From Octopus sinensis (Eukaryota), in contig NC_043002.1 of the NCBI RefSeq assembly GCF_006345805.1, forward strand, positions 22,506,001 through 22,570,000: a stretch of DNA of 64,000 nucleotides. The letters run 5' to 3'. Position numbers and translations under genes: made by a program. This document shows positions 31,766 through 31,831 of this stretch, piece by piece. Each line of letters starts with the position of its first letter. Position 1 is the first letter of the stretch. Under the pieces are notes generated by a model. That model ran no database searches, was not told the DNA's origin, and saw nothing but the letters and a program-made list of their open reading frames with translations.

Positions 31766-31831
31766 ATCCCCTTCTTCAGTCGCTAAGGTTTCATCTACTA
31801 AACGTTTCGAAGGATAAAAGCGAGACGTATA
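31766..31831 (-). ncRNA. Hammerhead ribozyme-like motif in non-circularly permuted strand order, within a ~230-bp element (about 31672-31900)
   Basis: Minus strand: UAUACGU-C-UCGCU-uuu-AUCCUUC-GAA-ACGUUUA-14 nt-AGCGA-CUGAAGA-AGGGGAU. Helix III 6/7 bp, helix I 5/5 bp, helix II 6 pairs (two G-U) with an A-C at the junction; GUC triplet at 31824-31826. Confidence 0.65.

What the first reader, a model, noticed from the sequence alone, without database searches (positions are those of the whole stretch)
31766..31831. Second, sequence-divergent element with the same rearranged hammerhead topology
Seen in sequence: on the minus strand the same strand order recurs with largely different helix sequences (helix I UCGCU/AGCGA versus UCAAGAA/UUCUUGA; helix III UAUACGU/ACGUUUA versus UAGUAAU/AUUACUA), while CUGAAGA, GAAA and the UC site are identical. 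Here helix II can form (AUCCUUC/AGGGGAU). Both elements have a similar upstream motif (gttttcttcgaag / gtttttcttggagg), T-rich tails containing gtcctgt, and sit in TA-rich microsatellite. Inference: structure kept despite sequence change argues for selection on a ribozyme fold in two subfamilies of one non-autonomous retroelement.
Basis: partly seen in the sequence, partly recalled or inferred. Interest (0 to 1): 0.88.

Follow-up and report, generated by a model that had tools for sequence, protein, structure and literature searches.

The report
Split-core scrambled hammerhead in octopus repeats
This stretch belongs to a repeat scattered in many copies through this animal genome that carries all the core letters of a hammerhead self-cutting RNA in a scrambled order, predicted to be held by an extra four-helix junction; copies often begin just after the predicted cut, so it likely cuts in living cells, and the same predicted fold sits at the ends of Naiad jumping genes that were reported to lack a normal hammerhead.

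Summary
Window 31584-32450 (-) is one turn of a young 862-nt tandem non-coding repeat with a fixed 3' end at (TA)n and ragged 5' ends. It carries a hammerhead core in S-G-C order. Helices I and III covary across 11 subfamilies (54/55 and 43/44 pairs). Cleavage is inferred, not shown: among 100 genome-order rows per family, 16 of 18 and 33 of 35 truncated copies start within 17 nt after the predicted cut, six exactly at it. A pairing-blind pattern finds 4,413 further matches (control 7). The same fold lies in the 3' UTR of decayed Naiad Penelope-like elements and of a LINE. Closest known: type-SGC hammerheads from metatranscriptomes; the uninterrupted block C test fails, so a new variant. The scan has noted this family many times on other DNA; the split-core idea came from those notes and was tested here.

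The parts
31584..32450 (-). One full turn (monomer position 242 through the cut site to 255) of an 862-nt non-coding tandem repeat, family F1a; 3' end at ...UUAACAUAU running into (TA)n
   Evidence: 94.7% to the monomer of L005; fixed 3' end, variable 5' ends in 30 loci; no Pfam match for its two longest ORFs
31768..31899 (-). Whole predicted ribozyme unit: IVa-Va-Vb-IIa-P-IIIb-UC/cut-Ib-IIb-GAAA-IIIa-P'-Ia-CUGAAGA-IVb
31895..31899 (-). Helix IV 5' strand CCCCU, pairs with AGGGG 31772-31768 directly after A9
   Evidence: 92% of cells paired in 30 F1-type copies, no two-sided change within F1; unrelated sequences form it in F2, LINE and Naiad
31852..31894 (-). Helix V hairpin (CUGCGAAAAG 31894-31885 / CUUUUCGCGG 31861-31852), no gap to helix IV or helix II
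   Evidence: pair probability 0.98; 3 of 10 pairs with two-sided change
31846..31851 (-). Helix II 5' strand GAAG(G>A)A, starting with G10.1; pairs with UCCUUC 31814-31809 next to G12
   Evidence: 96.7% paired, G-C at the core in 30 of 30; this copy has a rare A at 31847
31840..31844 (-). Helix P 5' strand GUUUU, pairs with GAAAC 31792-31788 (equivalent of the stem I/II interaction helix of type-SGC)
   Evidence: 2 of 5 pairs with two-sided change
31819..31831 (-). Block S: helix III strand, GUC, predicted cut between 31824 and 31823, helix I strand
   Evidence: sequence; covariation; 5'-end pile-up after this site
31799..31814 (-). Block G: helix II 3' strand, GAAA, helix III strand
31773..31784 (-). 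Helix I strand AGCGA and core CUGAAGA
50233..50655 (+). 5'-truncated copy of the second family (F2a, monomer about 780-820 nt) with the same architecture; predicted cut 50510|50511; this copy has deletions that break helix II

Best explanation
The stretch holds the core letters of a hammerhead ribozyme in scrambled (S-G-C) order inside a young, non-coding tandem repeat; it is predicted to fold with helix II separated from CUGAAGA by a four-way junction, likely cuts its own RNA after the GUC, and the repeat is likely copied into (TA)n by a borrowed Penelope-like reverse transcriptase. Shown: the core letters, the helices and their covariation, tandem arrays, fixed 3' ends at (TA)n, and 5' ends heaped just after the predicted cut. 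Inferred: transcripts of arrays are cut to monomers or short multimers; reverse transcription starts at a fixed internal site about 250 nt (F1) or 150 nt (F2) downstream of the cut, primed on nicked (TA)n DNA; it stops at a cut 5' end (short copies) or reads through uncut or religated sites (unit-length and multimeric copies, such as the window's). Because helices II, III, P and IV hold the two ends of a cut monomer together, religation to circles is plausible. The enzyme now in use is more likely a Neptune-like PLE (intact ORFs present) than Naiad (only broken ORFs seen), while the ribozyme itself is likely of Naiad stock.
For: Helices I and III: 54/55 and 43/44 pairs in 11 subfamily representatives; swapping block S between unrelated groups gives a mean 2.8/5 and 1.5/4 and 1 full fit in 84. 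N7 and the triplet vary as in hammerheads (GUC, GUA, AUC; CUGAAGA, CUGAUGA) while the rest of the core is kept (the core was part of the search pattern). Upstream helix II: 11 of 15 representatives have at least 5 Watson-Crick pairs (9 of them at the homologous place), 0 of 114 cross-family pairings do. Four-way junction without gaps in 8 of 9 units examined, four unrelated sequence families. Seven helices on 30 F1-type copies: 92.7% paired, 9 pairs with two-sided change, slid controls 41-51%. 5' ends: F1a 16 of 18 truncations at +1..+16 (p 3e-7), F2a 33 of 35 at +1..+17 (p 8e-14 after dropping one duplicate flank); 1.0-1.9% per nt against 0.06-0.12% per nt upstream and at +22..+82. An inverted 5'-truncated copy beside L103 is a PLE trait. 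9 of 149 GIY-YIG matches lie in open frames of 762-883 aa, two confirmed as RT plus C-terminal GIY-YIG.
Against: No cleavage assay and no RNA ends. None of 30 Naiad copies starts just after the cut although several are truncated upstream of it, so the footprint is not general. Within F1 helices II and IV show no two-sided change; their covariation is between four families only, and related copies inflate the shuffle test. RNAfold, which cannot form pseudoknots, gives the upstream helix II a probability near 0 in F1 and Naiad units (0.67-0.88 in F2 and the LINE), and competing pairings exist. The junction was not resolved in the one F1c copy tried, and F2 has 2 unpaired nt after A9. No hammerhead with this wiring is known to be active. 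5' ends were read by eye, rows include tandem units, and most ends lie 6-16 nt after the cut, not at it. No RT ORF was found attached to F1 or F2, so the mobilising enzyme is unproven. Eight of nine predicted frog retrozymes did not cleave in vitro in a recent test.
Confidence: 0.78

Rival explanations
1. It is an ordinary type-SGC hammerhead: helix II forms with the strand directly after CUGAAGA (extra A after A9, then G-C, G-U, G-U, G-C).
For: That register gives 3-4 pairs in all F1 subfamilies; an extra nucleotide between A9 and G10.1 is known.
Against: It gives 0-2 pairs in F2, the LINE and Naiad; half of its pairs are G-U on a slippery purine run; the upstream partner gives 5-6 Watson-Crick pairs in all four families and the downstream strand is used by helix IV.
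Confidence: 0.08
2. The fold is real but does not cut (or no longer cuts); copies start there because reverse transcription stalls on the knot, or because a promoter or nuclease makes an RNA end there.
For: No direct cleavage data; 82% and 65% of rows read through the site; Naiad copies show no pile-up; in a lizard PLE cleavage was dispensable in vitro and no reads ended at the site.
Against: The peak is bounded at +1 in two unrelated families, with 3 ends exactly at +1 in each and none between -1 and -18; it is absent where the enzyme first meets the structure (+22..+82) and in the 75 nt of structure upstream that was visible to -35.
Confidence: 0.11
3. The helices form between two tandem units or two molecules (dimeric ribozyme) and not within one unit.
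For: The elements are tandem; many PLE hammerheads work as dimers; the single-unit knot was not modelled in three dimensions.
Against: Helix III is 5-7 bp and not palindromic; Naiad and LINE copies carry a single unit; single-unit SGC ribozymes cleave.
Confidence: 0.03

Closest known systems
Type-SGC hammerhead ribozymes (HRIMA-1 and variants; Eckert et al. 2023, PMC10085705; seen: main text parts 2-6 of 8, supplement parts 1 and 8 of 42)
   Same: Order cleavage site, GAAA, CUGANGA; mutually crossing helices I, II, III; 3-4 nt link between helix I and II strands; a helix joining the far ends of stems I and II.
   Different: There block C is unbroken and the RNAs come from metatranscriptomes, none from genomes of known organisms. 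Here helix II's 5' strand lies upstream of the cut, two extra helices (IV, V) sit between A9 and G10.1, and the host is an animal retroelement. Their descriptors need CUGAUGAG or CUGAUGAUG plus a downstream stem and so cannot match.
Type-CSG hammerheads (same paper; two metagenomic sequences)
   Same: Same cyclic order of strands; closing helix IV with a loop turns the octopus form into CSG/SGC with a two-helix insert.
   Different: Unbroken block C. By eye, 6 of 18 Naiad 3' ends (all nematode) are clean type-CSG.
Metazoan non-LTR retrozymes (Cervera and de la Pena 2020, PMC7229834, 7 passages seen; Li et al. 2026, 10.64898/2026.07.22.740005, parts 1-3 of 5)
   Same: Non-coding head-to-tail repeats, one ribozyme per unit, about 40% GC, thought to be non-autonomous PLE derivatives.
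   Different: Those carry type I hammerheads; monomers mostly 150-450 nt (up to 972 in the 2026 preprint) against 780-862 nt here; circular RNA not shown here.
Naiad Penelope-like elements (Craig et al. 2021, PMC8557442; seen: 12 passages, supplement rows, parts 11 and 24 of 59, 36 record ends)
   Same: (TA)n targets, 5' truncation, tandem and inverted copies; the octopus Naiad flagged 'HHR_half_core' carries this fold in its 3' UTR.
   Different: Naiads encode GIY-YIG and RT and were reported to lack canonical hammerheads; F1 and F2 encode nothing and share no alignable sequence with the Naiad UTR.

Membership tests
Hammerhead ribozyme | Core C3 U4 G5 A6 N7 G8 A9 and G12 A13 A14 | tested here: met
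Hammerhead ribozyme | A15.1-U16.1 pair, NUH triplet, helices I and III abutting the core | tested here: met
Hammerhead ribozyme | Helix II opening with R10.1-Y11.1 next to G12 | tested here: met
   G-C in 30 of 30 F1-type copies with the upstream strand; all four families
Hammerhead ribozyme | A9 joined to 10.1 directly or over 1-2 nt | tested here: not met
   helices IV and V intervene; downstream registers fail in F2, LINE, Naiad
Hammerhead ribozyme | Site-specific self-cleavage | not testable with these tools
   indirect genomic footprint only
Type-SGC hammerhead (Eckert 2023) | 5'-3' order S, G, C | tested here: met
Type-SGC hammerhead (Eckert 2023) | Uninterrupted block C (stem I strand, CUGAnGA, stem II strand) | tested here: not met
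   descriptor
Type-SGC hammerhead (Eckert 2023) | Helix joining the other sides of stems I and II | tested here: met
   helix P, 94% paired, 2 two-sided changes in F1; seen in the other families with some ambiguity
Non-LTR retrozyme | Tandem non-coding monomers, one ribozyme each, low GC | tested here: met
Non-LTR retrozyme | Type I hammerhead | tested here: not met
   order is S-G-C
Non-LTR retrozyme | Expression as circular RNA | not testable with these tools
   only contigs of runs not on record as RNA
Non-LTR retrozyme | Derived from the terminal repeat of a PLE | tested here: inconclusive
   no sequence match of F1/F2 to the Naiad or Neptune-like 3' UTRs examined; fold shared with Naiad
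Autonomous Penelope-like element | ORF with RT and GIY-YIG | tested here: not met

The most novel reading that the evidence does not exclude
A fifth natural wiring of the hammerhead, opened between A9 and G10.1 and closed by a four-way junction, is active in animal cells and is an old module of retroelements: it is the 'missing' ribozyme of Naiads from corals to octopus, has passed to a LINE and to young retrozymes, and belongs to one permutation series with type-CSG hammerheads in nematode Naiads, while other Naiads hold twister- or HDV-like RNAs at the same place.
Probability: 0.6. Interest if true: 0.88.

Novelty: new variant of a known kind. Interest (0 to 1): 0.78.

Why it matters
Non-circularly permuted hammerheads were known only from environmental sequence, and were defined on the assumption that block C cannot be interrupted. 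Thousands of genomic copies with a split block C would extend the fold rules and show why descriptor searches miss them. It would answer why Naiads seemed to lack hammerheads. The heap of 5' ends at the cut site would be genomic evidence that cut RNA serves as template in Penelope-type transposition, a role that is still open. Each point can be tested with one short transcript.

Tried and rejected
Rfam scan of the window: the 150 rows shown of 280 were all microsatellite matches to miRNA models below threshold; no hammerhead among them, 130 rows not seen. Downstream helix II in 8 registers: none fits all families; I first favoured a 2-nt spacer before GAAA and dropped it. RNA evidence: no RNA holder listed; contigs from runs only guessed to be RNA cover the monomer, one 862-nt contig spans one unit, but contigs cannot tell circle from tandem or show ends. 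Search for an ORF-bearing partner: 20 plus 20 GIY-YIG loci were C-terminal-endonuclease PLEs where an ORF was readable, and F1/F2 copies near them were separate insertions behind (TA)n; 134 Naiad RT matches were all short or broken, longest open frame 320 aa, though the query was a decayed fragment and assembly indels may break frames. Random 600 kb: 0 S-G-C hits with a scanner that demanded the downstream helix II (it missed a Naiad copy in L165) and 6 remnants by BLAST, so an early guess of about 100,000 copies was dropped. Kink-turn after helix III (lead from earlier notes): G.A/A.G oppositions follow helix III in several subfamilies but not in F1a; not tested further. RNAfold cannot represent the knot. 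No structure or complex prediction was run. Sequence look-up in earlier findings was blank. Supplements of the bioRxiv retrozyme preprint are closed, and 40 of 42 parts of the Eckert supplement were not read; either could list such sequences.

Full report
Observation. On the minus strand the window reads helix III strand, GUC, helix I strand, then GAAA with the other helix III strand, then the other helix I strand and CUGAAGA. This S-G-C order is not a circular permutation of hammerhead types I-III; it is the order of the type-SGC ribozymes of Eckert et al. 2023 (PMC10085705). It was the only hit in the window in a scan for all six orders; a similar scan gave 1 such hit in 6 Mb of shuffled genome.

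The element. The window lies in a 2.72-Gb genome, octopus-like by inference from the near match of its Naiad 3' ends to the published Naiad_Obim and Naiad_Ovul. The stretch belongs to family F1a: 40 of 40 scored matches were 98-100% identical, many 860 nt apart, and an exact anchor occurs 440 times (reversed control 0). The 50.5-kb element belongs to family F2a (1,413 anchors, control 0). Monomers are 862 and about 784 nt, 40-41% GC, two-thirds pyrimidine; the two longest ORFs over the window copy match nothing in Pfam. In the 60 loci mapped, arrays end at one fixed 3' point (...UUAACAUAU into (TA)n) wherever the end was inside the locus, and start at varied 5' points: the pattern of target-primed reverse transcription. 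The window copy, 31584-32450, is one full turn that begins and ends at that 3' point.

Helices I and III. A pattern with no pairing and no block S gave 4,413 matches against 7 for its reversal (F2a excluded by design). In its first 30 loci a complementary block S stood upstream in most copies, and was replaced by microsatellite in two. Across 11 subfamily representatives helix I kept 54 of 55 pairs and helix III 43 of 44, with many two-sided changes; block S swapped between unrelated groups fitted fully in 1 of 84 trials.

Helix II, the correction. Earlier notes of this scan spoke of a split core and a four-way junction; I tested that. The strand before GAAA pairs with a strand 22-28 nt upstream of the cut, opening with G-C: at least 5 Watson-Crick pairs in 11 of 15 representatives (9 at the homologous place), 0 of 114 across families. 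The strand after A9 pairs further upstream (helix IV), a hairpin (helix V) lies between, and IV, V and II abut without gaps in 8 of 9 units from four unrelated families; F2 leaves 2 nt after A9, and the one F1c copy was not resolved. A further helix P joins the far ends of stems I and II. On 30 F1-type copies (30 of 44 available) the seven helices pair in 92.7% of cells with 9 two-sided changes, against 41-51% when slid; helices II and IV do not covary within F1, only between families. RNAfold, blind to pseudoknots, supports IV and V in most units but the upstream helix II only in F2 and the LINE.

Footprint of cutting. I listed the first 100 genome-order copies of each family with about 55 nt upstream and read the 5' ends by eye. 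F1a: 82 read through, 16 start at +1..+16, 2 upstream. F2a: 65 read through, 33 start at +1..+17 (two share a flank), 2 upstream. Three in each family start exactly at +1; none starts between -1 and -18. In a control 100 rows, F2a had 6-7 ends in +22..+82, with one non-family row set aside. Rates are 1.0-1.9% per nt just after the cut and 0.06-0.12% elsewhere; p 3e-7 and 8e-14. Five of 33 cores in the older F1b loci also start at +7..+16. This fits an enzyme running off a cut 5' end and losing a few bases when joining to TA. Some arrays read through one or more sites and then stop at a cut site (L004), which points to partly cut multimers as well as circles. Against: 0 of 30 Naiad copies start there.

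Where else. Craig et al. 2021 (PMC8557442) report that Naiad PLEs target (TA)n, lack canonical hammerheads, and flagged 8 as half-core, including the octopus one. A motif from it occurs 249 times here (control 0); 29 of 30 loci show block S, ending about 75 nt before (TA)n; 4 of 10 Naiad RT loci have the core downstream within the locus (weak RVT_1 match). By eye only: a coral Naiad has the complete four-way form; 6 of 18 record ends, all nematode, are clean type-CSG; 2 of 18 are the octopus form. A LINE with a zinc-binding RT domain and a restriction-like endonuclease motif (name HERO recalled) has the fold in its 3' UTR: a core in 20 of 23 distinct loci, often decayed.

Mechanism. Shown: anatomy, covariation, array structure, end distribution. 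Inferred: cleavage; internal initiation by a PLE enzyme, as shown for a lizard PLE on AT-rich DNA (PMC11167929, 12 passages); religation. All 134 Naiad RT matches were short or broken, while 9 of 149 GIY-YIG matches lie in 762-883 aa frames of C-terminal-endonuclease PLEs that also end at (TA)n. So the young repeats likely borrow a Neptune-like enzyme (clade name from the CxxC linker, and recall); this is not shown.

Comparison and novelty. It works like a hammerhead and has the type-SGC order, but fails the unbroken block C test, and it is organised like a non-LTR retrozyme but lacks the type I ribozyme. Searches of the held library for type-SGC/CSG or permuted hammerheads, hammerhead with octopus (15), Naiad (60), Hero (75) or four-way junction (92) returned no description of this form; I judged most hits from their listings, and subscription journals are not covered. 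The scan itself has noted the family many times (137 notes matching 'hammerhead' in this genome); those are unchecked notes, not support.

Verdict. A real feature; new variant of a known kind; confidence in the mechanism 0.78; interest 0.78.

Noticed in passing
G000:C1:20141323-20141743 (L261/L271) and L272-L295: A decayed LINE family (zf-RVT, restriction-like endonuclease motif; HERO by recall) carries the same split-core fold in its 3' UTR, with a 12-bp helix IV.
   Followed up: partly
PMC8557442 supplement: 3' ends of six nematode Naiads (Nbra 1-3, Hcon, Hpol, Asuum) parse by eye as clean type-CSG hammerheads, a type so far known from two metagenomic sequences. Spider Ptep and ostracod Naiad-2_Dst look S-G-C without a downstream helix II.
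   Followed up: no
PMC8557442 supplement: By eye, 3' ends of five bivalve Naiads and one jellyfish Naiad resemble twister ribozymes (compared with the alignment), and six others resemble HDV-like ribozymes (recall). Naiads may swap ribozyme class at one place.
   Followed up: no
L068 about 2330-2450 and L077, L072: The intact C-terminal-endonuclease PLE (about 781 aa) seems to carry a minimal type I core with U3/A8 and a palindromic helix III near its 3' end (by eye).
   Followed up: no
L124, L144, L147, L165, L064, L179, L180: Canonical-order (type I) hammerhead matches also occur in this genome: 4 in 600 kb of random sequence and near PLE remnants.
   Followed up: no
L103 (G000:C7:83275001-83278261): Head-to-head inverted pair of F1b copies, a structure typical of PLE insertions.
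   Followed up: partly
L047, L050, L072, L078, L176, L223: Copies of different families cluster at the same (TA)n tracts, including the 3' ends of PLEs.
   Followed up: no
window 30645-31220 and 18166-18619: Tandem copies (period about 183) of a very common short repeat, likely the octopus SINE (name recalled); the window is otherwise microsatellite-rich.
   Followed up: no
monomer positions about +40..+46 upstream partner in F2 (window 50445-50457): F2 has a near-complement of its own CUGAAGA just upstream of helix V, which could form an off state.
   Followed up: no
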